Virus record (IMG/VR): IMGVR_UViG_3300020577_003668
Coordinates: 32,001-96,000 of that record
Origin: a virus
Lineage: Duplodnaviria; Caudoviricetes
DNA: 64,000 nt
Reading direction: 5' to 3' (one strand)
Part shown: positions 7,808-62,700 of the stretch, piece by piece
Numbering within the stretch: the stretch's first letter is position 1
How the letters are laid out: the number at the start of each line of letters is the position of its first letter
Program-made: the position numbers and the translations under genes
The notes under the pieces: model-generated
Told to the model about the DNA's origin: nothing
Seen by the model: the letters and a program-made list of their open reading frames with translations, nothing else
Database searches by the model: none

Positions 7808-8545
7808 CTAGAAAAACCCGAGATAATCGGGTTTTTCAATACTTTAAATTGTAACAACCTGTAACTTACAGGTTGTTACAATTTGCGCCAAAATTATACC
7901 ATAATTTTGGCACCCGCGTCAAGCGTTGTTACAAACACTTACACGCTGTTGTTTTTGCGCAACTGGCACGATTCTTGCTTGCAGGCCTGAATGCGAATCA
8001 TTCTCGTTCGCATTGTTAGTAAGCGCTAACTGGGGCGATATGTAACAACCTGTAACTTGTAGGGTTATTCGGAAGTTAGTGAGCACTAACTAACTTTTTT
8101 CACTACCAAAATTGCGCACGCTTTCGCGCGGCGCCAGTGGTAGATCTTGGCAAGTGCAAAATCTCAGATGCGATTTGCGCCAAATTATACCAGTGGTAAA
8201 CCTTGGCAGTCAAGTAAGAATTTTCAATCGTAAAACACAGCCTCTGCAACCATCAAACTTTTTTTCTTGAAGAATTTTATGTAATCGGGCATAATAATGA
8301 AATGCGTTAGGGAATCAAGGAAAGCATAGCCAGCGCGACCATAAAACGTGCGGGCGGAACTATCCGAAATTATCGAATGCATCAACATAGCGGCGAAATT
8401 TCTTTCTTGATTGCCGCGGTTCTCTTCTCTATAATAGATATATCGGATGGGGAAACACCCTGGAAGTTACCCTCAGTAACCATCTGAATTTCTCTGTTGA
8501 TCCTCAACCTGTTGTGTTATATAATATTTCTTTGAAAGGGAATAT

Positions 8546-8908
8546 ATGGCTACCGAAAAGACCGTGAACTACACTGAAGCCCAAACCACCGAACTGGTGC
8601 AGGCCTACGTTGCTACCCCGACTGACGAGACCGTCAAGTCGTTCGCCGAGAAGTTCGGCAAGACCACTCGTTCGATTGTTGCCAAGCTGGCTAAGGAGAA
8701 GGTTTACGTCTCCAAGGCTAAGGAAGCTGGCAAGCGCGATATGCTGAAGAGCGAAATGATCGCGAAGATCGCCGGCCTGGTGGGCCGTAGCGAAGAACAG
8801 CTGGAAAGCCTGGAGAAGGCTACCGGTGTGGCTCTGAAGGCAGTGATCGAGGCGCTGGAAGCGCGCGACGCTGAGATCAAGTCGCTGACCGAAGAAGTCA
8901 CCGCTTGA
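8546..8908 (+). CDS. T5 A2-like DNA-binding protein, paralog 2
   Basis: VNYTEAQ...FGKTTRSIVAKLAK near-identical to 5963 protein. Confidence 0.75.
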   Translation: MATEKTVNYTEAQTTELVQAYVATPTDETVKSFAEKFGKTTRSIVAKLAKEKVYVSKAKEAGKRDMLKSEMIAKIAGLVGRSEEQLESLEKATGVALKAVIEALEARDAEIKSLTEEVTA

Positions 8909-9220
8909 TTAACGGCAGGTGCCAGCCAGGCGGCTGGTTAAATGAACAAGGCCTGAACAGCCTGCCAAAATTTTCACTTGATTTGTGTCCCCGATTTCTA
9001 TATAATAGATATATCGGATGGGAAAGCAGCGACAGACTCCAGCGTGAAGCATTAAAAATTCTGTCTTGATTCGCTGCTCAAATCCCTGTATAATGAATGT
9101 ATGGCCGGCGCATGACCATCGGCAAACGTAGCAGGATGGGCTTGAAGCCACAGCCATTTTATGCCCCGATAGCAGGGGCGCGTAGCCAGCAAGTCGCGCT
9201 GGATGTGATACTAGTATAAT

Positions 9221-9453
9221 GGGTGGACAGCGGTATGTAGGGTTGATACGCCCTCGTAAGCGTCCTTAATTGCCGGGAATTCTAGAGAGGTAGCCTGCAG
9301 CTACAAACCTAGGGCCGAGCGTCAGCCCTCACGTAGATTTAATATGGGTGGACAGCGGTGCGCAGTACGGTTCCTCAATCTGTACATAGCAAGCGTCCTT
9401 AATTGCCGGGAAGATGCCAGATCAGAGGCTAGTGCATCGCCGATCGTCAGCCC
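9221..9453 (+). ncRNA. Tandem pair of structured RNAs (9221-9328, 9346-9453)
   Basis: Conserved GGGTGGACAGCGGT / AAGCGTCCTTAATTGCCGGGAA / GCCGA.CGTCAGCCC blocks with variable hairpins between. Confidence 0.7.
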
Positions 9454-9653
9454 TTCACAGACTTTCCAAGTGAGCCTAGCAGCTCTATACCTTCGGTAGC
9501 AAATGTTCTATCGGCAACAAACTAATGCTAGGCTCACTTGGGTGGTTTGAGACCAGTATGTATCTGGATAAAAGCTTAATTGTGATTGAAGCTCAGATCA
9601 CAGCCTAGCTCGTTAGTCACTCAGCAAGTCTGTTTTCTACTGAGTCTATTTTT

Positions 9654-9729
9654 GCCCTGTTCGACTTCAGGTTGAGGTCAACGTCCTTTCAAGTCGTGCA
9701 GATGGGTTCGATTCCCATACAGGGTACCA
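9654..9729 (+). tRNA. tRNA-Glu(UUC)
   Basis: Cloverleaf, TTC anticodon, TTCGATT T-loop, CCA. Confidence 0.9.
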
Positions 9730-9730
9730 T

Positions 9731-9829
9731 TCCTCTGATGAGTCCATGCAAGTTGGACGAAATCCTAGCGGCCCCAGGCAGGCCTCCTGATCCTTCCCAG
9801 GATCAACCTGCCCGGAGCTAGGATCAGGA
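9731..9829 (+). ncRNA. Type I hammerhead ribozyme
   Basis: TCCT-CTGATGA-GTCC..GGAC-GAAA-TCCTAGC..GCTAGGA-TC^AGGA; complete core, predicted cleavage after C9825. Confidence 0.8.
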
Positions 9830-10861
9830 TATTCATACATATTGATGCTACGGCTGGCGTATGTACGAAATCTACTCGCGACCCAGAGTATAAATATGGT
9901 TAGTGTGCACACTATAAATGCCGGCCTGTGCCGTGAACACAAGGACCTAATATCCTGCTCGTGGGACTAGGTAGCGATACACGAGCGTTAGCCTACTCAG
10001 TACGGACGCTAGCAGTAGAGGTGAAGTTTAGAAGCCGAATAGGGTGAGAAGCCCTTATTAGAAATAATGTACGCGTGTGTGCATTTATTGCCTTGAATGT
10101 ATAGTTTTGCAAGACTCTACAGCCAACTATTATTTCTAGCAAAATCCTGAGCAGAGGTTTGATCACCCGAGCAATATGGTGGGACACCAGGGCCCTTGCA
10201 CCTGGCTAGTACGAGTAATTTACTATTCCAACGTATCTAGTAACAAAATCGGTGGTACGATTTACAGCCCCTGCAGCAGAAATGCTCAGGGGCTGCTTTC
10301 ATTCGCGAGTCTCTTTTCTACGTGCGGCACCCAAATCCGCATAGCGGCGCCAATTTTACAGTGCTAAACCTTGACTGTCAAGAGAGAATTTAGAAACGAC
10401 AAAAGCCCTCAACAGCTAAACTGGAGGGCGAGGTAGGGCCTTGAAGGTTTGATAAACTAGCAAGGTATAGGAAGTTATGTGCTGCTTGAGGGTGAGCCAA
10501 CCCAGGTGCGCAGGCAAGAGCCGAAGGCTCAGATTGCGAGGCTAGAGTAATTTAATAAGGCGCTATTTTATAGTTACTAGAATATTCACTGGGGCCATAC
10601 TTTACGTATCATTTCCCACCGGATAGGTTCGATCGAGTTTGCAGTTAATTTAAGGCTTACAGCCACCAGTAACTCTCAATAAGTTATTCCGATCTCTCAG
10701 TATCAATTCTTCAGTCTTGTAGTGATGGTCCTAGAGAAAAAGTCCTCTGGCCAATGGGCCGAACATAAAATCTGTGCGGTTAATATATTATAACCTAGGG
10801 GCAAAAAAATTGCAAGTTTAAATTTAAAAAGCCACCAAATTTCACAATTTGGTGGCGTTTT

Positions 10862-11173
10862 TCATTTATCAGCCGTTAAAGCGTCTTCTAACAACTTAAG
10901 TACGTTTTTATTGACTTTCTCTAGAGATTCTAGTCGATCAATGTTGACGTTAAGTAATATGGCGAGCCTATCGATGTACTCTTCCTTCTTAATCGGTACC
11001 TCACCGCGTTTGTTGAGGTAGGACTTCTTCTGGTAAACACCTAGGGAGGATAATTTAGCAATTACCGAGCGTACTGGTACGTCTAATTGAGCTGCAAGCT
11101 CCTCGGTTGACGCACCTGCTTGGTAGTCTGTTACCAGTTTGGCAGTTACTTCAGGAGTGTACTTCATTACCAT
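10862..11173 (-). CDS. T5 A2-like DNA-binding protein, paralog 3
   Basis: RSVIAKLSSLGVYQK...LESLEK. Confidence 0.7.
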   Translation of the reverse strand: MVMKYTPEVTAKLVTDYQAGASTEELAAQLDVPVRSVIAKLSSLGVYQKKSYLNKRGEVPIKKEEYIDRLAILLNVNIDRLESLEKVNKNVLKLLEDALTADK

Positions 11174-22515: not shown

Positions 22516-23106
22516 ATGTATACTAAAGAAATAGTCCCATTAAAGGGCCTAAAAGCTGGCTATGTAATATTCAGAGATCATAGCCACCCCTTAGCCTATG
22601 ATGATGGCGCTGTATATTTGCACAGACATGTTGCAAGTATTAAGTTGGGGAGATGGGTTACAAGCGAAGAGTATGTTCATCATATTGATGAAAATAAGTT
22701 AAATAATGAACCTTATAATCTAGAAATACTATCTAACTCAGAGCATAGTAAGATACATAATCCAAATAATTTAAGTAAGATTATTTGCCCAACATGTAAA
22801 AAAGAATTCCAACCCATTAGTTGCAAAATACAATATTGTTCTCCTAAATGTTACGCAGTAACAACTATTAAAAATACAAAGATAACAAAAGAATTATTAG
22901 ATGAACTTATACCTAAGACTTCTTGGAGAGATTTAGGTAATATGTTTGGATATTCAGATAACGGAATAAAGAAGCGTGCTAAGGCTTTAGGGTGTGACAC
23001 TTCTAATGCAAAGAATAAGCGAATGCCAGCTAGACCGAATGGGGGGTACACGCTTGATAAGCGTGCTGTACTTGGATCGAAACCAAGAGTTGGTACCAAA
23101 GGATAA
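22516..23106 (+). CDS. HNH homing endonuclease
   Basis: YLHRHV, VHHIDENKLNN, NL..L...EH, CPTC/YCS..C. Confidence 0.9.
   Translation: MYTKEIVPLKGLKAGYVIFRDHSHPLAYDDGAVYLHRHVASIKLGRWVTSEEYVHHIDENKLNNEPYNLEILSNSEHSKIHNPNNLSKIICPTCKKEFQPISCKIQYCSPKCYAVTTIKNTKITKELLDELIPKTSWRDLGNMFGYSDNGIKKRAKALGCDTSNAKNKRMPARPNGGYTLDKRAVLGSKPRVGTKG
23025..23098 (+). tRNA. tRNA-Ile(GAU)
   Basis: Cloverleaf, GAT anticodon, CCA; lies inside the 3' end of the HNH ORF. Confidence 0.85.
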
Positions 23107-23107
23107 T

Positions 23108-23190
23108 GCCCCTGTGACTTATGCAAATTGGCACAGCTACGAGTCTTAGAAGCTCGGTTTTTCCCGGTTCGAATCCGGGCGGGGGTACCA
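23108..23190 (+). tRNA. tRNA-Leu(UAG), short variable arm
   Basis: CGAGT-CTTAGAA-GCTCG, CCA. Confidence 0.85.
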
Positions 23191-23235
23191 AATTTTCAGA
23201 TTGATTTTAGAATCCATCCATAGTATAATTATATT

Positions 23236-23874
23236 ATGGAGGACTCAAAAATGATCGAAGAATTAGTATACAAAATATGTACAGTAATCGGGGAGGACCC
23301 CGATAAAAAAATAAAGAGACCTATAAGAGGTCTACCAGGTATAACTGTATTTAGTCTAATAGAGGCGCTATTAGTAGCCGGTACCCTTAATAAGGCTGCT
23401 GAATATTTAGGATATACCACCAATCCCGTAAAACAGGCAATTAAAGAGGTACTAATACCTACCTTTAGTACTAGGCATAAAGAATATGGTAGTGGAGGTG
23501 GTCTAACCCCCTGGAAATACGAGTTACTAAAGTGTATTAACTATAAGTGTTGTGGCCAATGTAATAGAATATTGCCACATAGCGAATATTACTCTAATAC
23601 GTCTAGAATAGTAGATGGGCTTGCAAGTTTTTGTAAATCGTGTAATATAGCTGCTTCAAAATCCCACAAGTATTATATAGTACAAAGAACCCCTTCCTGG
23701 TCGGAACTAGACTTAATAGCCGAATTCTATAGAAACTGTCCTATAGGTTATCACGTAGATCATATATTACCCCTCAGAGGGAATAACGTAAGTGGCTTAC
23801 ACGTATTAAGTAATCTACAATATCTCTCCGCCACAGAAAACATGAAAAAGGGTAATAAGTTTAGTATTGAATAA
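23236..23874 (+). CDS. HNH endonuclease
   Basis: GYHVDHILPL...GLHV..NLQ...EN.KK.N. Confidence 0.9.
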   Translation: MEDSKMIEELVYKICTVIGEDPDKKIKRPIRGLPGITVFSLIEALLVAGTLNKAAEYLGYTTNPVKQAIKEVLIPTFSTRHKEYGSGGGLTPWKYELLKCINYKCCGQCNRILPHSEYYSNTSRIVDGLASFCKSCNIAASKSHKYYIVQRTPSWSELDLIAEFYRNCPIGYHVDHILPLRGNNVSGLHVLSNLQYLSATENMKKGNKFSIE

Positions 23875-23876
23875 TT

Positions 23877-23961
23877 GCCAGAGTGGAGTAACGGTAGCCT
23901 CTGCGGACTTAAAATTCGCCGTCCTTGTGGCGTACGGGTTCGATTCCCGTCTCTGGTACCA
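23877..23961 (+). tRNA. tRNA-Leu(UAA)
   Basis: Cloverleaf with V-arm, CCA. Confidence 0.9.
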
Positions 23962-23967
23962 AATAAT

Positions 23968-24043
23968 ACGAAAATAACTCAAATGGCTAGAGTCCCGCCT
24001 CTTAAGCGGTGAGATCCTGGTTCGATCCCAGGTTTTCGTACCA
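23968..24043 (+). tRNA. tRNA-Lys(CUU)
   Basis: Cloverleaf, CCA. Confidence 0.9.
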
Positions 24044-24160
24044 AGAACAGCGGAGTTGAGACCCGAAAACTAGAACCAACCGTATAAGTTACCTTATACG
24101 ACTTAGGTGGTCGAATTCTAGCACGATAGTTGAAGCCTTAGACTATCCTCTTACGTTTCT

Positions 24161-24306
24161 AAAACCGCGGGCTAGTTTAATAGGAAAAACACCGCGCGCG
24201 AAACTCCCTACCCTATGGCAGTATGTACGGTCTGCAGCCGACTATATACGTAAGCAATGGGACATACATGTGAGATACATCTTTCGAAGGATGTGCCCAC
24301 GGTTTT
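24161..24306 (+). ncRNA. tRNA-like RNA with expanded anticodon domain
   Basis: CCGCGGGC/GCCCACGG closing stem, TAGTTTAATAGGAAAAAC D-arm, ACATC-TTTCGAAG-GATGT T-like arm. Confidence 0.5.
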
Positions 24307-24322
24307 AGGAACTTAACATAAA

Positions 24323-24757
24323 ATGATTACATATACAAAAGGTAACGTAGCTTTAGCTAGAGAAGCTCATATTGCTCATGGCTGTAATGCTCAAGGCGTT
24401 ATGGGTTCTGGCGTAGCTAAGGAAATTCGTAGGCTATACCCTGATGCATATACTGCATATCGTATGGCGTACTTGCGTACAGGGCTTGAACTTGGTTCAG
24501 TTGTTGTAGCTACTCCTATTGACGGTAAGATCATCTATAACTGCATTACTCAGCAGTATTATGGTAATGATGATAAGGTATACGCTTCGTATGAAGCAAT
24601 TGCTAAATGCTTCGCCTTCATGAACGGTTGGGTAGCGGGCAGAGCTGCTTTAGCAATTCCACGTATTGGCTGTGGGCTTGGTGGACTTGAATGGGATAAA
24701 GTAGAAGCTATTATCTTGAAGGCTGCACGTTACGACGTTGTAGTCTACGATATTTGA
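24323..24757 (+). CDS. Macro domain (Poa1p/DarG-like) protein
   Basis: HGCNAQGVMGSGVA, PRIGCGLGGL.W. Confidence 0.9.
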   Translation: MITYTKGNVALAREAHIAHGCNAQGVMGSGVAKEIRRLYPDAYTAYRMAYLRTGLELGSVVVATPIDGKIIYNCITQQYYGNDDKVYASYEAIAKCFAFMNGWVAGRAALAIPRIGCGLGGLEWDKVEAIILKAARYDVVVYDI

Positions 24758-24812
24758 TCTTGATTTCAGCGCTTAGACAGTATATAATATTGTCTAATCA
24801 GTGAGATTTTGA

Positions 24813-25124
24813 ATGACTAAAAAGAGATTTGGCGTGACCGCTATCATTTATGATAAGCGTGGTCGGGTTTTGAGTGTTGGTAGTAATAGTTATGTAAAGA
24901 CCCACCCGCTTCAAGCGGATCACGCTCGTCGTGCCGGGGAACCCAGTAAGATTTACCTACACGCGGAAATTCATGCGATTACTCGCTGCCGCGACATTTC
25001 TAAAGCCTATCGTATGGCTATTTTTAGGTATCTTGAAGATGGTTCCCCGGCGAGGGCGTGTCCTTGTAATATCTGTCGTAGCGCTATTGACGCTACCCCT
25101 ATTAAGATTGTTGAGCATACATGA
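24813..25124 (+). CDS. Zn-dependent nucleotide/cytidine deaminase-like protein
   Basis: HAE and PC..C motifs. Confidence 0.8.
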   Translation: MTKKRFGVTAIIYDKRGRVLSVGSNSYVKTHPLQADHARRAGEPSKIYLHAEIHAITRCRDISKAYRMAIFRYLEDGSPARACPCNICRSAIDATPIKIVEHT

Positions 25125-25319
25125 CCACTAATACTAAAGGTACCCCCAAGTCTTGTTCGTGTTCCCAATGCCGTAGAGGCAAACACGACGGAGCAAAAGA
25201 TATTGTAAAAGCAGATGAGCGGGCTTATCGGCACGCTGCAAAAATTGCTCTAGCTAATATGGATCTAGAAGAAGGCGTTGTGCTTAATTCTGGGCCCATT
25301 GGAAATTACTACGATTAAA

Positions 25320-25395
25320 CTCTCATAAGTGTTGCCTGATGGCATACTGCGTTTGGGGCGCAGTGGGGAAGGTTTGAATCCTTCATGGGAGACCA
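25320..25395 (+). tRNA. tRNA-Pro(UGG)
   Basis: Cloverleaf, CCA. Confidence 0.85.
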
Positions 25396-25453
25396 ATTAA
25401 AAAAATTAACTTGATTTTGTGCTGCATTTCAAGTATAATGATTACTAATCAGT

Positions 25454-25529
25454 GGGATTGTGGCGAAAGGGTTATCGCATCACCCTTTTAAGGTGTAAGT
25501 TATTGGTTCGAATCCAATCAGTCCTACCA
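25454..25529 (+). tRNA. tRNA-Lys(UUU)
   Basis: Cloverleaf, CCA. Confidence 0.9.
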
Positions 25530-25751
25530 AAGAATTACCGAGCATTTTAGCTGGCGCTTCCGACAACCTCCGGATAGGCTACTATGTGTGTTAGAGGTGA
25601 CGCGAGTAAGTGGCGATCTCAAGGGCCTAGCGTTAATGCAACGTATAGGATATCCAAGTATCAAAACCTCGTTCGGTGTAGTGAGCTAATTTTGTATTTT
25701 TTACGAGTTCACTTTAATCTCTAGACGTTAAAAACCCTTAGTTCGCTAAGG

Positions 25752-25827
25752 CGTGATCTTATCTCAAGTGGAAGAGAGCAAGGCTGTGAACCTTGTAAGT
25801 ACGATTTCGACTATCGTAGATCACCCC
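25752..25827 (+). tRNA. tRNA-His(GUG)
   Basis: Cloverleaf, C73; CCA incomplete. Confidence 0.8.
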
Positions 25828-25845
25828 TTAACGAATTAAATTTAT

Positions 25846-25921
25846 TGCGGGCGAGGAAGACGGCAATCCAGCAGGCTCATAACCTGAAAATACTCAGTTC
25901 AACTCTGAGGCTCCGCAACCA
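25846..25921 (+). tRNA. tRNA-Met(CAU), possibly initiator type
   Basis: CAGG-CTCATAA-CCTG, CCA. Confidence 0.8.
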
Positions 25922-26140
25922 ATAAATAGCATAGGCGGTAGCATTATGCGTAGGTGAGACTCCTACAACTAATTAAAGACTTAAGGTAACGAATATACGT
26001 AGGCAGGATGACCGGATCAAGTCGCTTCGGCGAATGAGAGTTCAAATCGAACTTGTTCTTGTGAATAAGCCCATGCGCGGTGACGTACTTTTCGCGGAAC
26101 TGAGGATACTGCGCTGGTAATTGTCGCCCTCATTATTTTA

Positions 26141-26212
26141 GCGGCTAAGGTGTTTATGGACGCACGTTAGTCTTCCAAACTTAAGGAGTCGGATCGTTAC
26201 CGACTAGCCGCT
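26141..26212 (+). tRNA. tRNA-Gly(UCC)
   Basis: GCGGCTA/TAGCCGC-T, TCC anticodon; CCA not encoded. Confidence 0.8.
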
Positions 26213-26219
26213 CATCTAT

Positions 26220-26289
26220 AAGACGAAAAGGGTAGCTCCCCTGTCATTGCCTATATCAATGACTAGTCTTTTCTTATATAGGAAGAATT
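26220..26289 (+). promoter_or_regulatory. Conserved pseudoknotted leader, copy 2
   Basis: Same core with compensatory stem changes. Confidence 0.75.
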
Positions 26290-27009
26290 ATGACAATAGG
26301 AATATACTCTCTTTATTGGGAGAAAGAAGACTTAGTTTATGTTGGGCTGTCTCAGAATATAGAAGATAGATACAGAGAACATATTCTAAAAATGAGAAAA
26401 TTAAAGCATTCTAACTATAAAGTGCAGAATGCATATAATTTATATGGAATACCCAGACTAGCTATATTAGAAGAATGTAGTATACCAGAATTAAACGATA
26501 AAGAAATCTTTTGGACAAAAGAATTTAATTCTATTAATGCTGGGTTAAATATAGTAGAGGCAGGCGAAGTAGGTTGGGGTGTTAATTCGAATGCATCCAA
26601 ATATACTAAAAGACAAATATTAAAAGTATTTGCTGTATTATACAATACTTTTAATTCTGCCGAACAAATAGCTAGTAGGTGCGGAGTCCCTACGTCTTTT
26701 GTGCACACTATCTCTAAAGGAGATAGTCATAAGTGGTTGGAAGATGAATACCCGCAACAATTTGCAAAAATGCGTAAAATTGCTGAGTCGAGGGTAAGAC
26801 AGAAATTTTCTTCTGATATTATCTATATTAAAAACAATATAGTATATCTAAAAAGTCCTACTGGTGAAATAGTAAAAATAGATACCTCTATACGTGAGTT
26901 TTGTAGAAAACATAATTTAAACTCAGGCCCTATGTCTGAAGTTATAAAGGGCCAGAGAAATCAAAATAAAGGGTGGACTTTACATGCCCATTCTAAGAAA
27001 GAGGTATAG
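26290..27009 (+). CDS. GIY-YIG homing endonuclease
   Basis: GIY..VYVGLS...R..H; paralog of 18062. Confidence 0.9.
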   Translation: MTIGIYSLYWEKEDLVYVGLSQNIEDRYREHILKMRKLKHSNYKVQNAYNLYGIPRLAILEECSIPELNDKEIFWTKEFNSINAGLNIVEAGEVGWGVNSNASKYTKRQILKVFAVLYNTFNSAEQIASRCGVPTSFVHTISKGDSHKWLEDEYPQQFAKMRKIAESRVRQKFSSDIIYIKNNIVYLKSPTGEIVKIDTSIREFCRKHNLNSGPMSEVIKGQRNQNKGWTLHAHSKKEV

Positions 27010-27048
27010 TACGACCCGCAAATCAGTACTGCAAATAGAGATATTTGC

Positions 27049-27133
27049 TCCAAGGTGGCCAGAGTGGTAATGGTCCTCGCTGTTAACGAGATATGGTTAA
27101 CTACCTTCGTAGGTTCGATCCCTACCCTTGGAG
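27049..27133 (+). tRNA. tRNA-Asn(GUU) with long variable arm
   Basis: TCCAAGG/CCTTGGA-G, GTT anticodon. Confidence 0.85.
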
Positions 27134-27322
27134 CAAATATCTTTAGATACTACTAATAATTAAGTATTCTTTTGGGTATGAGTGTTAGACGTAACACCTA
27201 TGGGCCTGTTCTGGCGAGGAACTACCCTGATATAACTGTCTAGTCGCTATGGGATGAAAGCATCAGACCCCTAAATAGGACATAAGAATACTTAATTATT
27301 GGGCTTGTAGTATAGAATTATA

Positions 27323-27397
27323 GGGCTGTTCGTATACTGGGTATTACTTCTGTTTTGCATGCAGAAAAAGGCGGATCGTAACCGCCACGGTCCACCA
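27323..27397 (+). tRNA. tRNA-Ala(UGC)
   Basis: G3:U70, TGC anticodon, CCA. Confidence 0.9.
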
Positions 27398-27400
27398 TAT

Positions 27401-27473
27401 TAAGCGAAAAGGGTAGCTCCCCCGCTGTTGCCAACTCAACAGCTAGCTTATTAGTTTCTAGTTGGAGATAAAA
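27401..27473 (+). promoter_or_regulatory. Conserved pseudoknotted leader, copy 3
   Basis: Loop CCAACT pairs with AGTTGG overlapping the GGAG RBS. Confidence 0.75.
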
Positions 27474-27974
27474 ATGATTATAAAAGAATTTGTATCTAAG
27501 GATACATCTAATAGAACTCGTATGTTTTTAGAACTTCAATGCGAAGTTTGTAAGACTATATTTAGTAGGCAAAAAAGACTAGTAAATACACATACGTGTT
27601 CTGCTAAATGTAGAAATGCCTTTACAGGTATAACTGTAGAATTACAGTGTGATAACTGTGGGGTACCTTTCTTTAGAGCTAAATCTAAACTAGATAATTC
27701 TAAGTCTGGTAAGTATTTTTGCTGTAGACAGTGTAAAGATACTGCACAAACATATATGGAAGAAATAAGGCCGGAACATTATGGTAATGGTAGAGCTTCC
27801 TATAGAGAAAAAGCTTTTAGACATTATAAACCTATTTGTACAAAATGTGGTTTTTCTAATAGATTAGCCCTAGAAGTTCATCATAAAGACAAAGATCGTA
27901 ATAATAACGAAATAGATAATTTAGAAATATTATGTGCTAATTGTCATAATATTTCTCATGCTCTTTTAGCTTAG
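27474..27974 (+). CDS. HNH endonuclease with Zn fingers
   Basis: CTKCG..LEVHHKD..R.NN...NL..LC.NCH. Confidence 0.9.
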   Translation: MIIKEFVSKDTSNRTRMFLELQCEVCKTIFSRQKRLVNTHTCSAKCRNAFTGITVELQCDNCGVPFFRAKSKLDNSKSGKYFCCRQCKDTAQTYMEEIRPEHYGNGRASYREKAFRHYKPICTKCGFSNRLALEVHHKDKDRNNNEIDNLEILCANCHNISHALLA

Positions 27975-28837: not shown

Positions 28838-28848
28838 TTAATTTTTAC

Positions 28849-28877
28849 TTGAATACGCCAAGTTATTAGCGTATAAT
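28849..28877 (+). promoter_or_regulatory. sigma70 promoter of the Y-RNA/Ro unit
   Basis: TTGAAT-17bp-TATAAT. Confidence 0.75.
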
Positions 28878-28916
28878 AGATTTATCGGTTGAGAGATCAG
28901 CCAGCTAAAGTAAGCT

Positions 28917-29121
28917 CCTATTGTAGCGAGGTATTCAGTTACTTCATATAATAGAACTGTCCTGTAAAACCTTGGAGATAATAAACTCTTTAAAGTTGGG
29001 ACAAAAACAAGAACCTTGACAAACGCATGAAATAAAGCAAAGCTAATGGAATACCGCTAGCTAGATAAGTGGTCAAGCAAAAATAACACTTATCGGTCCT
29101 GAATCGAATAATCTCGATAGG
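28917..29121 (+). ncRNA. Y-RNA-like unit 1
   Basis: CCTATTG-TAGCG...TTCAG-TTACTTC...CTGAA...CGATAGG. Confidence 0.65.
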
Positions 29122-29131
29122 AACTTACTTT

Positions 29132-29269
29132 AGCTGTAGCGACATAGATAGTTACTTCTTGGTTCAACTCCAAGTTTCGGGGCTTTGAGTATTATGTACT
29201 CAAAGCCCCGAAACTGAGCATGGTGCTCAACAGCCAGCAATGGCTACTATTTATAAATTTTACTCAGCT
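29132..29269 (+). ncRNA. Y-RNA-like unit 2 (YrlA-type tRNA-like domain)
   Basis: Shared motif plus T-arm TTGG-TTCAACT-CCAA, 18-bp capped acceptor-like stem, D-like TGAGC-ATGGT-GCTCA. Confidence 0.8.
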
Positions 29270-29278
29270 TCTTAATAT

Positions 29279-29430
29279 TGTGTGGTGTTAGAAACGGTTA
29301 CTTCATTTTGGATATGACTGTATGTGGGTTCGAGTCCCGCCGGCCCTAATAAATGTACTAAGTATATTTATTAGGGCCGTAGGCAAATTGGTAAAGCCGG
29401 TAAAAAGCTCTGTTTCGCCTTGTTCCCACA
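29279..29430 (+). ncRNA. Y-RNA-like unit 3 (YrlA-type tRNA-like domain)
   Basis: T-arm GTGGG-TTCGAGT-CCCGC, capped stem CGGCCCTAATAAAT/ATTTATTAGGGCCG, D-arm GGC-AAATTGGTAAA-GCC in T-acceptor-D order. Confidence 0.85.
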
Positions 29431-29442
29431 GTTTTTAAATAC

Positions 29443-29550
29443 GACATAGCGTATTATTAGTTACTTCACTCACCACTTTAGAGTATGAACTGGTTCAATC
29501 CCAGACAGAGCTAGTCGGAATTGCTCATTACTAATAAGTTTGTTCTTGTC
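29443..29550 (+). ncRNA. Y-RNA-like unit 4
   Basis: GACA-TAGCG..TTATTAG-TTACTTC...CTAATAA-GTTTGTTCT-TGTC; internal T-loop-like hairpin. Confidence 0.7.
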
Positions 29551-29577
29551 ACCTTCTAATTAATTAAAGAAAACAAA

Positions 29578-30909
29578 ATGTCTAGCCTAAATCGTACTGT
29601 ATATCGCCAAAATATTACTGGTGCCCAAATGGCCCAGAATCATCACGGCCTGAAGGTTACTGCCCTATCTCCTGAAGCCAAGCTGACTCGCCTAACCATG
29701 GCGCACATGCTTTGGGAAAAGCAATTCTATGTTGACGGACAGAAGTCCGCCGACCTAATGGCGTCCCTTGTTACCAAGGTGTCACCATCGTTCGTGTCCA
29801 ACCTGGCTCGCCAGGCGCGCGATAAGTTCAAGCTTCGTCACGTGCCTCTGCACCTGATGCGTTCACTTGCGAAGTCAGGCGCTCTCAAGGCGGCTGATCT
29901 AGCTGAAGTGATCCAACGTCCGGACGAACTTTCCGAGTTCGTTTCCCTTTACTGGGCCGACAAGAAGCAACCTCTGTCCAACCAGGTTAAGAAGGGTCTT
30001 GCACTTGCCTTTGGTAAGTTCAACGAATACCAACTTGCTAAGTGGGATAAGAACTCCGCAGTGGTATCGCTGCGCGACGTGATGTTCCTAGCACACCCAA
30101 AGCCTGCTAACGCAGAGCAAGCTGCCCTTTTCAAGAAGGTAGCAGACCAAAAGCTAGAAACCCCTGATACTTGGGAAACCAATCTATCTGCGGGTGCGGA
30201 TAAGAAGGCTACTTTTACCACCCTAATGCAGGATGGTAAGCTAGGTGCGCTTGCGTTCCTACGTAACCTTCGTAACATGGTGGAATCTGGTGTATCCGAA
30301 TCTCTGATTCGTGATTACTCCAAGACAGTTAACACTGATCGTGTTCTACCTTTCCGTTTCCTTGCGGCAGCCCGCATTGTTCCTCAATTTGAGGACATGC
30401 TAGAAGCAATGATGTTCCGTTCCTGCGAAGGTATGGAAAAGCTGCCAGGCAAGACTAAGCTATACGTAGACGTTTCCGGCTCCATGTATACCCCTAAGGT
30501 TAGTGAAAAGTCCGACCTAACACGTCAGGATGCTTCGCTTGCCCTAGCTATTCTGTGTCGGGAACTATGCGAAGAAGTAGAAATCTACAGCTTCAGCGGA
30601 AAATCTCTACGTATTGCCCCTCGCCGAGGGTTTGCTCTAGCAGACGCTATCAAGACCAGCCAAGGCTGCTCTGGTACTCAGCTAGGACATAGTCTGAAAG
30701 AAACCGAATCTAAAGCTGATCGCATCGTTGTAATCACTGATGAACAATCTAGTGATATGCCTTCTGCTCCTTTTGGTGGAGCCAAGGGTTACCTAATCAA
30801 CGTAGGTAGCTATCAGAACGGCGTTAACCATAACGCCTGGACTAGCATTACTGGCTTCTCCGAAGCTGTATTTAGCTATATCCAAATGTTCGAACGCGAA
30901 GGCGTTTAA
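29578..30909 (+). CDS. Ro60/Rsr-like TROVE-domain RNA-binding protein
   Basis: TROVE motifs (F.EYQLAKW, LRDV..L.HPKP, TWE..LS, A.LRNLRN, LPFRF) and vWA MIDAS DVSGS..T..ITDEQ. Confidence 0.93.
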   Translation: MSSLNRTVYRQNITGAQMAQNHHGLKVTALSPEAKLTRLTMAHMLWEKQFYVDGQKSADLMASLVTKVSPSFVSNLARQARDKFKLRHVPLHLMRSLAKSGALKAADLAEVIQRPDELSEFVSLYWADKKQPLSNQVKKGLALAFGKFNEYQLAKWDKNSAVVSLRDVMFLAHPKPANAEQAALFKKVADQKLETPDTWETNLSAGADKKATFTTLMQDGKLGALAFLRNLRNMVESGVSESLIRDYSKTVNTDRVLPFRFLAAARIVPQFEDMLEAMMFRSCEGMEKLPGKTKLYVDVSGSMYTPKVSEKSDLTRQDASLALAILCRELCEEVEIYSFSGKSLRIAPRRGFALADAIKTSQGCSGTQLGHSLKETESKADRIVVITDEQSSDMPSAPFGGAKGYLINVGSYQNGVNHNAWTSITGFSEAVFSYIQMFEREGV

Positions 30910-31914: not shown

Positions 31915-32220
31915 GATTGTCGTAATTCGGATCAAGCAGATGTGGGCCAGACGGGGCTTCGCCGCCCCCACCTCCACCAGTTAGTATAGAGTATAGATGC
32001 GCATCTAGTAATAGGCTAAGACCTAACAGAAATGTTCTCTGTACTAACTAATGGGGGTGAATATGTTTTCGATGGCGCAAATAAGTGAGATACGCGACAC
32101 GGTAGGCGATGACCGTTAATCAAGCAAAACCTTTAAATGCAGCAAACGATGCATACTTCGGAGAAGAACGCCTAGCGGCGTAATCCCGATGTAGGAGCTA
32201 TCCTATATCAAACAAAATAG
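31915..32220 (+). ncRNA. ssrA: Circularly permuted (two-piece) tmRNA
   Basis: Acceptor piece ending CACCTCC-ACCA (31979) precedes coding piece starting GGGGGTG (32053), giving G3:U70; tag (A)ANDAYFGEERLAA* ends 32183. Confidence 0.9.
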
Positions 32221-59747: not shown

Positions 59748-62700
59748 ATGATTGATGGGGTGTATGAAACATTCATTGCTAAGTCTAGATACGCAAGATA
59801 TTTAGACGAAGAGGCCAGGCGAGAAAATTGGTCGGAAACTACTAACCGATATCTAGAATTCATACAAGAACACCTTCTAGAAAAGCACGAATATCTTATC
59901 CCTGAAGATGTCCTGGAAGAACTACGGGGTGCTATTCTTAACAACGAAGTATATCCTAGTATGCGTGCATTGATGACTGCTGGTGAAGCTCTGGAGCGAG
60001 ATAATACCGCGGGATTCAATTGTTCTTACTTGCCTGTTGATGATATTAAATCATTCGACGAAGCAATGTATATCCTTATGTGCGGCGTTGGCGTGGGCTT
60101 CAGCGTGGAAAGGCAGTATATTTGTAAGCTTCCAGAAGTACCAGATAGAATCTATCCTTCCGAGAGCTATATCATGGTACACGACTCTAAGGAAGGCTGG
60201 GCTAAAGCGCTACGACAACTCATTGCCTTACTGTATTCTGGTGAAGCTGCCAAATGGGATGTTAGTGAGGTTAGACCTGCAGGCGCAAGACTTAAAACTT
60301 TTGGAGGCCGCTCTTCAGGACCAGGTCCTTTGGTCGACTTATTTAGATTCGTTACAAAAATATTTAAAGGCGCGACAGGACGAAAACTAACCTCCCTAGA
60401 ATGTCATGATATCATGTGCAAGATCGGCGAAGTTGTTGTAGTTGGCGGTGTTCGCCGATCCGCAATGATCTCGCTATCTAATCTGTCTGATGATCGTATG
60501 CGTCATGCTAAGTCAGGTGCATGGTGGGAGGCTAATCCACAACGTGCTTTAGCAAATAACAGTGCTTGCTATACTGAACGTCCTGAAGTGGGCGTATTTA
60601 TGCAGGAGTGGTTATCTCTATATGAGTCAAAGTCTGGTGAAAGAGGAATCTTTAATAGAGAAGCAGCTACTAAAGTGGCTGCTAGGAACGGACGAAGAGA
60701 AACGGAAGGGCATGAATTTGGCACTAATCCATGTTCCGAAATTATCTTACGGCCATATCAGTTTTGCAACCTATCAACAAGCGTTGTAAGAGCTACAGAT
60801 ACACGAGAGGATTTACTTAGGAAAGTCCGTCTAGCAGCGATATTTGGTACGTATCAGTCCACTCTAACTAATTTTCCTTACTTAAGAAAAATCTGGCAAA
60901 AGAATACAGAGGAAGAGCGTCTATTAGGCGTTTCAATGACTGGACCTCTAGATAATCCCCTGCTTAATAATCCAGATGATCCTGGGTTAGAGAAATTACT
61001 AGAAGAGCTGAAAGCTGAAGCTGTACGCGTCAACAAGGTGCTTGCCATGCAAATTGGCATTCCTCAGGCGACGGCTGTAACGGCTTAACAAAATTTAGAC
61101 TTGAAATTTTTCAACAACTGTTATATAATTATTATACTGGTATAAAAATACAGGAATAATAAAATGATAGATGTAGAAAAAGTATTAAATGAATATGGTA
61201 TTGACAAGGCTAGAGACCTATTTTTAAGAGAAGGATATACTCTTACTCAGTTTCATTTAGAAACTAAATTAAGTACTAGTAAAAATAGAACTTCGCAGAG
61301 AGTGTATGAAGAAGTATATAGAATACTCGGTATTACCGAGATTCCTTATAAAGAAGATACACAGCCTGTTAGAAAATTTAAATTAGAATTTGATAGAGTC
61401 TCCGGCAAGTACTGGGAGTCTGACTATATAGTAGAGGTTCTACTAGATAAGCTACAAAATCCAATACTTAATAAGGCGGAGAATAGAGAGAGATACGTAA
61501 TAGGTTTCCCTAAACACCCTAATTCGGATCCTACGTCTAATCAAATTAAAGCACATATTGTTCAATGGGAAATATTAAATGAACAATATGTGCCTAGTAA
61601 TCATTGGGTAATACCCGTAGATGATGATTATACTAACTTAGATATGGATAACTGGGTTTTGGTAAATACGACCGAATTTAAGTCAGATAGATTTACCAGT
61701 GAAGGTAACCCTTCATATAAGCACGGAAAATCAGGAAGACATAAGTTAGGCGGCTGGGCGTTAATTAGTAAAAATAGTATTAATAAGCATAGATTCTGTA
61801 CAAGATGTAATACAGATAAAGGTTTAATAGTGCATCATATTATTAACTATCATCTATTTACTAATCCCATGGAAGCGCATAATATAGATAATTTATTAGT
61901 ATTATGCCAAAGTTGTCATGCCAAAATACATCTAACTAATCTAAATATAAAGGCCCTTATTGAGGAAACTCAATATAGCAAATTACTTAAATTGCTGGAA
62001 ACTCTCAAGAGCCAAGTTCCAGACTCCATGAAGGAAACTTACGTGGACGTAGAAAAGCAACTTGGACTAACAGACAATCAGCAGCCAAGCACCTAAAGAA
62101 AAGTATCTAAGGTGAAGGTTCAACGACTATCCATTTATGGAGTAGGACCGAAGACGGTTCGAAAAAGGTAATACCCTATTAATTATGGGTAATGATATAG
62201 TCTGAGCTATATAGAAATATATAGAGAGAATACGGAATCGGTATTCTCGTAACATAACTGATCAAACCAGAAGGAACAACTAGCGAGCGAGCTGACTCTG
62301 CTAGTGGTCTGCATACACGACACGCTAAGTTCTATATTCGTAGAGTACGTGGAGATGTAAAAGATCCACTTACACAGTTTATGATGGCTAGCGGTGTACC
62401 TTGGGAACCGGATGTAATGAAACCGGATTCTACTGTAGTATTTAGTTTCGCAAAGAAGGCTCCAGAAGGTGCTCTAGTAAAGGCCGACCTATCTGCTATT
62501 CAGCATCTGAAGCTATGGCTAGCGTACCAACGATTCTACTGCGAGCATAAACCATCTATTACAGTTTCTGTAAAAGAGAAAGAGTGGCCTTCCGTTGGTG
62601 CATTCGTATGGGATCATTTCGATGAAATGAGCGGGGTTAGTTTCCTACCGGATGATGGTGGCAGTTATAGACAAGCACCGTATGAAGAGTGTACCGAGGA

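What the first reader, a model, noticed from the sequence alone, without database searches (positions are those of the whole stretch)
9221..9453. Tandem duplicated multi-way-junction RNA of unknown class
Seen: two 108-nt units conserve GGGTGGACAGCGGT, AAGCGTCCTTAATTGCCGGGAA and GCCGA.CGTCAGCCC while the hairpins between them differ completely. The ends pair (GGGT.GAC/GTC.GCCC, CGGT/GCCG). No ORF; they lie downstream of strong promoters near 9000-9095. Conserved junctions with variable stems suggest a ribozyme, aptamer or protein-binding RNA that I cannot assign.
Basis: seen in the sequence. Interest (0 to 1): 0.7.

Follow-up and report, generated by a model that had tools for sequence, protein, structure and literature searches.

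The report
Unassigned phage three-way-junction small RNA
The two 108-base repeats are real copies of a small structured RNA, absent from Rfam, that I found only in one clade of T5-like phages; its core is more conserved than the neighbouring tRNA gene, but its function is still unknown.

Summary
U1 (9221-9328) and U2 (9346-9453) share three exact blocks of 14, 22 and 15 nt, and the two segments between the blocks are unrelated.

No Rfam family matches, even at E<=10. No conserved ORF is present.

I found 10 further full copies and one partial copy in 2 viral and 9 metagenome contigs. None turned up in the prokaryote genome collection (one genome each of about 185,000 species), in 50,697 GenBank phage records, or in T5 and pVp-1.

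All copies fold as a three-way junction. The invariant 5' and 3' blocks form a closing helix of 12-13 bp. Two hairpins are exchangeable, and their closing pairs covary. An invariant 22-nt strand joins the two hairpins.

The core stays unchanged while the adjacent tRNA-Glu falls to about 59% identity and the adjacent protein to 45%.

The RNA heads a roughly 1.75-kb untranslated operon: unit, long hairpin, a related "unit-2", tRNA-Glu, a hammerhead, and about 1 kb of further RNA. Only this genome carries two units in tandem.

My best reading, at 0.35, is a stable trans-acting RNA that binds a protein. The phage encodes a Ro60 protein, but the evidence linking it to this RNA is mixed. A ribozyme or a cis-acting switch remains possible. 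This scan noted the same stretch once before, on this genome only.

The parts
8978..9006 (+). Promoter P1 (TTGATT-17-TATAAT) with the conserved start AGATATATCGGATGGGAAAGCAGC
   Evidence: The same promoter and start sequence occur upstream of the unit in all relatives and at 8430, 20396 and 28872 in this genome.
9066..9094 (+). Promoter P2 (TTGATT-17-TATAAT), about 120 nt upstream of U1
   Evidence: conserved in relatives.
9221..9328 (+). Unit U1: block A 9221-9234, hairpin H1 9235-9257, block B 9258-9279, hairpin H2 9280-9313, block C 9314-9328
   Evidence: (127.9 bits). Its H2 is the type found in L003, L270 and others: CUAG-AGAG-[stem]-AAAC-CUAG.
9346..9453 (+). Unit U2: block A 9346-9359, H1 9360-9390, block B 9391-9412, H2 9413-9438, block C 9439-9453
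   Evidence: (115.3 bits). Its hairpins match the single unit of the close relative L272.
9455..9552 (+). Long hairpin (27-nt arms). Its base pairs AGACUUUCC, just 3' of the unit, with GGGUGGUUU of unit-2.
   Evidence: Present in relatives with different interiors.
9540..9606 (+). 'Unit-2', a smaller related RNA: GGGUGGUUUGAGAC-[hairpin]-GAUAAAAGCUUAAUUG-[hairpin]-CAGCC
   Evidence: There are 10 homologues, and 9 of 19 predicted pairs show changes on both sides. It shares GGGUGG, AAGC..UUAAU and GCCC with the unit.
9654..9729 (+). tRNA-Glu(UUC), co-transcribed downstream
   Evidence: A tRNA-Glu (tRNA model only in L275) lies downstream on the same strand, 130-310 nt from the unit, in 9 of the 10 loci that extend far enough; L269 lacks it and L272 ends inside it.
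9729..9830 (+). Hammerhead ribozyme abutting the tRNA CCA end: CUGAUGA 9735-9741, predicted cut after C9825
   Evidence: 21 bits, below the Rfam cut-off. Stem II changes in a compensatory way in 8 relatives.
10831..10856 (+). Two-way intrinsic terminator that ends the untranslated operon

Best explanation
U1 and U2 are two copies of an RNA of about 100-140 nt that has no Rfam family, carried by a small clade of distant T5-like phages.

Shown: each copy folds as a three-way junction. The invariant blocks A and C form a closing helix, GGGU-G-GAC-A-G-CGGU with RCCG-AN-C-GUC-A-GCCC. That helix contains a G.A mismatch, a bulged A and a 2-nt bulge. Two exchangeable hairpins close right at the junction, and an invariant 22-nt strand (block B) joins them.

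Shown by sequence scans only: two tandem sigma70-type promoters lie upstream. The unit is the first conserved element of a roughly 1.75-kb untranslated operon that also holds a tRNA and a hammerhead.

Inferred: the unit is cut out as a stable RNA that acts in trans. Its sequence-invariant helix and block B are read base by base by a protein partner, as in the modular design of Y RNAs: a handle at the paired ends and an effector part beyond. The hairpins would be tolerated or swappable decoration.

The phage's own Ro60 (29578-30909) is the most concrete candidate partner. I give that specific pairing only about 0.2.
For: Real family: covariance-model hits of 65-128 bits in 12 loci, 9 of which were not used to build the model.

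Fold: RNAalifold gives the A:C helix. The first two closing pairs of H1 are standard in 12 of 12 copies, with 4 pair types each, and pairing falls to 25-58% in shifted registers. All four pairs at the base of H2 show changes on both sides, and the covariation score beats all 500 shuffles.

Variable block positions fit the A:C fold. U14 pairs with G or A. Position N6' (G, U or C) lies in the bulge. The G/A in GCCG(G/A)GAA is unpaired.

Strand: the U-G pairs fit the + strand only, and the minus strand folds worse.

Sequence-level constraint: blocks A and C were not part of the search pattern. Apart from block C positions R1' and N6' noted above, they are unchanged in all 12 copies, and block A does not vary at all. 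Meanwhile tRNA-Glu falls to 46/78-72/76 identity and the adjacent protein to 45-96%. A helix that only had to pair would have covaried, as the tRNA stems and H1/H2 did.

Operon context.

Ro60 lead: a TROVE protein is encoded in the window. All characterised Y RNAs have a long stem made by the 5' and 3' ends, whose 5' strand Ro60 reads (10.1101/312249). GGAC[A]GC/GCGUC has a one-base bulge where, from my memory, vertebrate GGUC[C]GA has one; the motif itself is cited in PMC4201824. Predicted Y RNAs of phage CcrColossus, whose Ro60 is 44% identical, begin with (G)GGUGGCGUAG.
Against: There is no expression, end-mapping or binding evidence.

The closing helix never varies, so covariation cannot test it.

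Block A can also pair with block B (GGACAGC/GCGUCC) at nearly the same energy, which suits a switch as well.

Against Ro60 as partner:
- The unit lies 20 kb from the Ro60 gene.
- The phage has its own YrlA-like RNAs with a different handle (GUUACUUC box, UUGUUCCC 3' strand) right beside Ro60. Mvi-JY20 has the same kind.
- The relative G003 has Ro60 (61% identical) and GUUACUUC RNAs but no unit.
- The Rfam models YrlA, Y_RNA and Dictyostelium Class I do not hit the unit.

The invariance of block B is partly due to the search, since the metagenome search required it to match exactly.
Confidence: 0.35

Rival explanations
1. A cis-acting switch or antitermination element. The unit would sit in the nascent transcript and control RNA polymerase read-through, or the folding of the downstream stable-RNA operon. 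It could do this by binding a ligand (riboswitch-like) or by binding the transcription machinery (put-like or boxA-like).
For: It is the first conserved structured element after two strong promoters and heads 1.75 kb of untranslated RNA. Block A is complementary to both B and C at near-equal energy. A second exclusive pairing links the sequence just 3' of the unit with unit-2. Needing to pair two ways would also freeze the helix sequence.
Against: No ORF or clear intrinsic terminator follows. No known riboswitch family matches. The three variable block positions favour one fold, A:C, over the alternative. The block B sequence is absent from the prokaryote genome collection, which is unusual for a metabolite sensor. 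The distance from the promoter varies from about 60 to 250 nt.
Confidence: 0.2
2. A new class of small self-cleaving ribozyme that helps cut the polycistronic stable-RNA precursor into pieces.
For: It has a three-way junction with a highly conserved core. The same operon already uses a hammerhead for processing. The several RNAs in the operon must somehow be separated.
Against: No match to hammerhead, twister, twister-sister, pistol, hatchet, hairpin or HDV models at E<=10. About 47 invariant positions, including a whole closing helix, is far more sequence constraint than known small ribozymes show, since their stems covary. No cleavage-site signature could be identified.
Confidence: 0.15
3. 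A passive structural module. It would be a stable fold that serves only as a processing spacer or as a block to exonucleases for the neighbouring RNAs, with no partner of its own.
For: The operon is a mosaic of hairpins that are swapped between close relatives. AU-rich stretches typical of RNase E sites precede most copies.
Against: A spacer needs structure, not sequence. Here about 47 of 51 block positions are frozen while everything around them, tRNA included, drifts.
Confidence: 0.12
4. A DNA-level site, such as an origin, a recombination site or a protein-binding site, rather than an RNA.
For: Exact sequence conservation is typical of protein-DNA sites. Homing endonucleases are frequent in this genome.
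Against: The hairpin closing pairs covary and include G-U pairs that work on the + strand only. The element lies inside a promoter-to-terminator unit together with other RNAs. The minus strand folds worse.
Confidence: 0.03

Closest known systems
Y RNAs, partners of Ro60/Rsr (metazoan Y RNAs; bacterial and phage YrlA/YrlB/Yrn1; phiLo Yrl1/2)
   Same: Modular design. A long stem made by the 5' and 3' ends has a conserved, bulged, sequence-specific helix, and a separate inner module lies beyond it. Often several copies occur per genome. They are encoded in phages that carry a Ro60 gene and many tRNAs (PMC4201824, 10.1101/312249, PMC12135203).
   Different: No GNCGAA motif and no tRNA-like T and D arms. 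The unit lies 20 kb from the Ro60 gene rather than within 4 kb. It is not hit by RF02553 or RF00019. This phage has separate YrlA-like RNAs with another handle next to Ro60.
Stable RNAs of unknown function co-transcribed with phage tRNAs (T4 species 1 and 2 RNAs; from my own knowledge, not checked here)
   Same: A small structured RNA inside a phage tRNA/stable-RNA transcription unit with no known role.
   Different: No sequence relationship was tested or is expected, and the phage family differs.
Hammerhead and other small self-cleaving ribozymes with three-way junctions
   Same: Three-way junction, conserved junction nucleotides, variable stems, and the same operon as a genuine hammerhead.
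   Different: No model match. The closing helix is invariant in sequence. The joining strand is 22 nt long.
Clamp-helix-plus-ACAGCAA RNAs beside Ro60-like genes, and Dictyostelium Class I RNAs (RF01414). The link comes from earlier AI notes of this scan.
   Same: A 6-nt clamp (GGGUGG/CAGCCC) is followed directly by ACAGC, then a variable interior.
   Different: Only 2 of the 5 near-invariant motif positions fit (PMC7919456). RF01414 finds nothing in the genome at E<=10. The protein here is a canonical TROVE protein.

Membership tests
Any Rfam 15 family | Covariance-model score at or near the family threshold | tested here: not met
   Nothing falls on 9221-9453 at gathering score or at E<=10.
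YrlA (RF02553) | GNCGAA(N)G motif near the 5' end | tested here: not met
   Block A reads GGGUGGACAGCGGU. It resembles GNCG..G only if A9 is treated as bulged. Motif taken from PMC4201824.
YrlA (RF02553) | Permuted tRNA-like domain with near-invariant T and D arms | tested here: not met
   No T-loop or D-arm is present. ARAGORN and the tRNA model are silent. RF02553 hits 29317-29401 and not the unit.
YrlA (RF02553) | Within about 4 kb of the Ro60 gene, on the same strand | tested here: not met
   Same strand, but 20 kb upstream of 29578-30909.
Y RNA in the broad sense | Long stem formed by the 5' and 3' ends that carries a conserved bulged helix | tested here: met
   The A:C helix of 12-13 bp has a bulged A and a G.A mismatch, and is invariant in 12 copies.
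Y RNA in the broad sense | Binds Ro60 | not testable with these tools
   A Ro60 gene is present. G003 has Ro60 without the unit. The genomes of the other unit-bearing phages are incomplete or not held.
Metazoan Y_RNA (RF00019) | Covariance-model match | tested here: not met
   No match at E<=10 in the whole genome.
Dictyostelium Class I RNA (RF01414) | 6-bp terminal stem plus the 11-nt motif | tested here: not met
   No match at E<=10. Only the pentamer ACAGC is shared.
tRNA or tRNA-like | Cloverleaf with T and D loops | tested here: not met
Known small self-cleaving ribozymes | Class-specific conserved core | tested here: not met
   One search lists only the separate hammerhead at 9719-9768.
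Riboswitch | Aptamer followed by an expression platform and a regulated gene | tested here: inconclusive
   Alternative A:B and A:C pairings exist. However, no ORF or terminator follows and no known aptamer matches.

The most novel reading that the evidence does not exclude
The unit is a new functional RNA class: either a new self-cleaving ribozyme or ligand-sensing fold, or the RNA half of an undescribed phage ribonucleoprotein. In the last case its invariant helix and 22-nt strand would recruit a host or phage protein. It would operate together with unit-2, the hammerhead and the 1-kb RNA as a dedicated phage RNA operon.
Probability: 0.15. Interest if true: 0.85.

Novelty: new variant of a known kind. 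Interest (0 to 1): 0.55.

Why it matters
Phage tRNA clusters hide small stable RNAs whose roles have stayed unknown for a long time. This one has a core of about 50 nt that is more conserved than the tRNA next to it, between hairpins that are swapped freely among near-identical phages. That pattern points to a specific molecular partner or chemistry, not a mere fold. It sits in a compact operon that can be cloned, has its own sigma70-type promoters, and also contains a ribozyme. The phage encodes Ro60 as well. Simple expression, cleavage and binding assays could therefore decide between a Y-RNA-like particle, a new ribozyme and a transcription switch.

Tried and rejected
- Known families: Rfam at the gathering and E<=10 thresholds gave nothing for the unit. 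It gave nothing for the downstream 1.5 kb either.
- tRNA-like readings, whether cloverleaf, anticodon arm or T-loop in block B, were rejected by inspection and by ARAGORN.
- Small peptide: rejected. The ATG is not conserved and the frame is not kept.
- 14-mer scans of viral contigs gave only chance hits inside genes.
- An A+C gapped pattern and a unit-2 anchor found no new viral contigs.
- The prokaryote genome scan found none.
- GenBank phages by blastn: none.
- Model R2 on T5, pVp-1, Mvi-JY20, G003 and G004: only one chance hit, inside a pVp-1 gene. A weak Mvi-JY20 hit with model R1 also lies in a gene.
- Antisense targets of blocks A, B and C in the phage genome: only chance-level matches of 9-10 nt.
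- Copies of the H1 and H2 sequences elsewhere in the genome: none.
- Loop-loop kissing as a general feature: found only in U2 and L272.
- Co-occurrence with Ro60 could not be settled. G001 and G002 end before the region, and the contig behind L267 is not held.
- Literature searches on T5 stable RNAs and phage hammerheads gave nothing specific.

Full report
**Observation**

The window is part of a 105.5-kb virus record with direct terminal repeats. U1 (9221-9328) and U2 (9346-9453) share three exact blocks:
- block A, GGGTGGACAGCGGT;
- block B, AAGCGTCCTTAATTGCCGGGAA;
- block C, GCCGA(G/T)CGTCAGCCC.

The two segments between the blocks are unrelated. Shuffles expect none of these repeats. Two sigma70-type promoters lie at 8978-9006 and 9066-9094, and a terminator lies at 10831-10856. 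The only ORF that overlaps (51 aa) is not conserved.

**Not a known family**

Rfam 15 gives nothing on the units at the gathering score or at E<=10. ARAGORN calls no tRNA there. Single-family searches with YrlA, metazoan Y_RNA and Dictyostelium Class I RNA also miss the units.

**Homologues**

- An exact search with block B, and a search for the neighbouring 120-aa protein, found single units in two viral contigs, L003 and L005.
- One metagenome scan plus model R1 added nine more, at 65-111 bits: L267-L272 and L274-L276. L271 is partial, and L273 is a chance hit.
- Nothing was found in the prokaryote genome collection or in GenBank phages.
- Model R2 found nothing in T5, pVp-1, Mvi-JY20, G003 or G004. 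The one weak hit lies inside a gene.
- The DNA polymerase is 47% identical to those of Vibrio Demerecviridae, so the host phage is a distant T5-like phage.

A caveat on bias: the metagenome search required block B to be exact, so the invariance of B is partly built in. Blocks A and C were not in the pattern.

**Structure**

RNAalifold pairs A with C: GGGU.GAC/GUC.GCCC, then G-C, then CGGU/RCCG. In 12 full copies these pairs never vary, except that U14 pairs with G (8 copies) or A (3 copies). Covariation therefore cannot test this helix.

The variable parts do give evidence:
- The first and last two bases of H1 form standard pairs in 12 of 12 copies, with four pair types each. Pairing drops to 25-58% in shifted registers.
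- All four pairs at the base of H2 change on both sides.
- In seven copies H2 has the form CUAG-AGAG-[5-6 bp stem that differs in nearly every copy]-AAAC-CUAG.

The RNA is thus a three-way junction, with block B (22 nt) as the strand joining H1 and H2.

Block A can also pair with block B (GGACAGC/GCGUCC), at an energy within 0-5 kcal/mol of the A:C fold. The three variable block positions fit the A:C fold better. U-G pairs and weaker minus-strand folds point to a + strand RNA.

**Constraint**

About 47 of the 51 block positions are identical in all copies. Over the same set of phages:
- tRNA-Glu drops to 46/78-72/76 identity;
- the adjacent protein drops to 45-96%;
- H1 and H2 are replaced outright.

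G000, L003 and L272 are near-identical in the flanks but carry different hairpins. U1 has the L003 type of H2. U2 is the L272 unit. The tandem pair therefore looks like two alleles brought together in one genome. A helix that only had to pair would have drifted, so its sequence is being read, either by a partner or through a second pairing.

**Context**

The order is conserved across loci:
1. the p120 gene;
2. two promoters with a conserved start sequence;
3. a variable leader;
4. the unit;
5. a long hairpin;
6. unit-2;
7. tRNA-Glu;
8. a hammerhead;
9. about 1 kb of conserved RNA with no assigned family;
10. a terminator;
11. the convergent genes p103 (a paralogue of p120) and p323.

Unit-2 (9540-9606) shares GGGUGG, AAGC..UUAAU and GCCC with the unit and has well-supported covarying stems. 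Its 5' part also pairs with the sequence just 3' of the unit. Individual modules come and go: L269 lacks the tRNA, L274 the hammerhead, and L267 unit-2.

**The Ro60 lead**

ORF 29578-30909 carries TROVE and Ro60-vWA domains. It is 44-54% identical to Ro60 homologues of CcrColossus, RsoM2USA and Mvi-JY20. Y RNAs are defined by a terminal stem that carries the Ro60 site, which is read mainly on the 5' strand.

The unit fits that design. Its GGAC[A]GC helix has a one-base bulge at the place where, from my memory, vertebrate GGUC[C]GA has one. Predicted Y RNAs of CcrColossus begin with (G)GGUGGCGUAG.

The phage, however, has its own Y-like RNAs beside the gene. Five elements carry a GUUACUUC box, and two of them carry permuted tRNA-like modules with weak YrlA hits. 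The same handle occurs in Mvi-JY20 and in G003. G003 has Ro60 but no unit. I therefore rate Ro60 as partner at about 0.2.

**Verdict**

This is a real, apparently undescribed and narrowly distributed structured RNA family. The most likely role is a stable RNA that binds a protein (0.35). A cis-acting switch (0.2), a ribozyme (0.15) and a passive structural module (0.12) remain open. No expression data could be obtained.

Noticed in passing
window 9729-9830: A hammerhead ribozyme starts right at the CCA end of tRNA-Glu. CUGAUGA lies at 9735-9741, stem III carries a 47-nt insert, and the predicted cut is after C9825. Rfam scores it only 21 bits, but stem II differs in a compensatory way in L003, L005 (two copies), L267, L268, L269, L270 and L276.
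   Followed up: partly
window 9540-9606: 'Unit-2' is a smaller RNA related to the finding (GGGUGGUUUGAGAC ... AUAAAAGCUUAAU ... GCCC). It is present in 10 loci with strongly covarying stems. Its second hairpin loop always starts with UGAA.
   Followed up: yes
window 9830-10830: About 1 kb of ORF-poor sequence follows the hammerhead. It contains islands conserved in L003, L005, L268 and L269 (for example CUACUCGCGACCCAGAGUAUAAAUAUGG) and has no Rfam match. It is a candidate large structured RNA released by the ribozyme.
   Followed up: partly
window 28838-29577 and 31268; gene 29578-30909: A phage Ro60 (TROVE) gene is accompanied by five GUUACUUC-box RNAs. Two of them carry permuted tRNA-like modules (T arm, long hairpin, D arm) that give weak YrlA hits. 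The same handle lies near the Ro60 genes of Mvi-JY20 and G003, and CcrColossus has six tandem relatives.
   Followed up: partly
window 8430, 9001, 20396, 28872: Four promoters share the motif TATAATAGAT(A/T)TATCGG, covering the -10 box and the start of the transcript. Two of them head RNA-only operons: the one containing the finding and the Y-like RNA array.
   Followed up: no
window 9627, 9643, and many sites in related loci: The motif AGTCT(A/G)TTTT recurs between the RNA modules of the operon in all relatives. It may be a processing or termination signal.
   Followed up: no
window 8546-8908 (+) and 10862-11173 (-): Paralogous proteins of 100-120 aa with no Pfam match flank the RNA operon on both sides in all relatives. 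L006 has the same flanking genes but different non-coding content between them.
   Followed up: partly
window 9373-9382 with 9418-9428: In U2, and in L272, the H1 loop CCUCAAUCUG can form 9 base pairs with the H2 loop CAGAUCAGAGG. No other copy shows this, so it remains unexplained.
   Followed up: partly
window 31918-32183; 61932-62224; 22516-27974: The window also holds a permuted tmRNA, a group I intron, and HNH and GIY-YIG homing endonuclease genes scattered among 22 tRNA genes.
   Followed up: no
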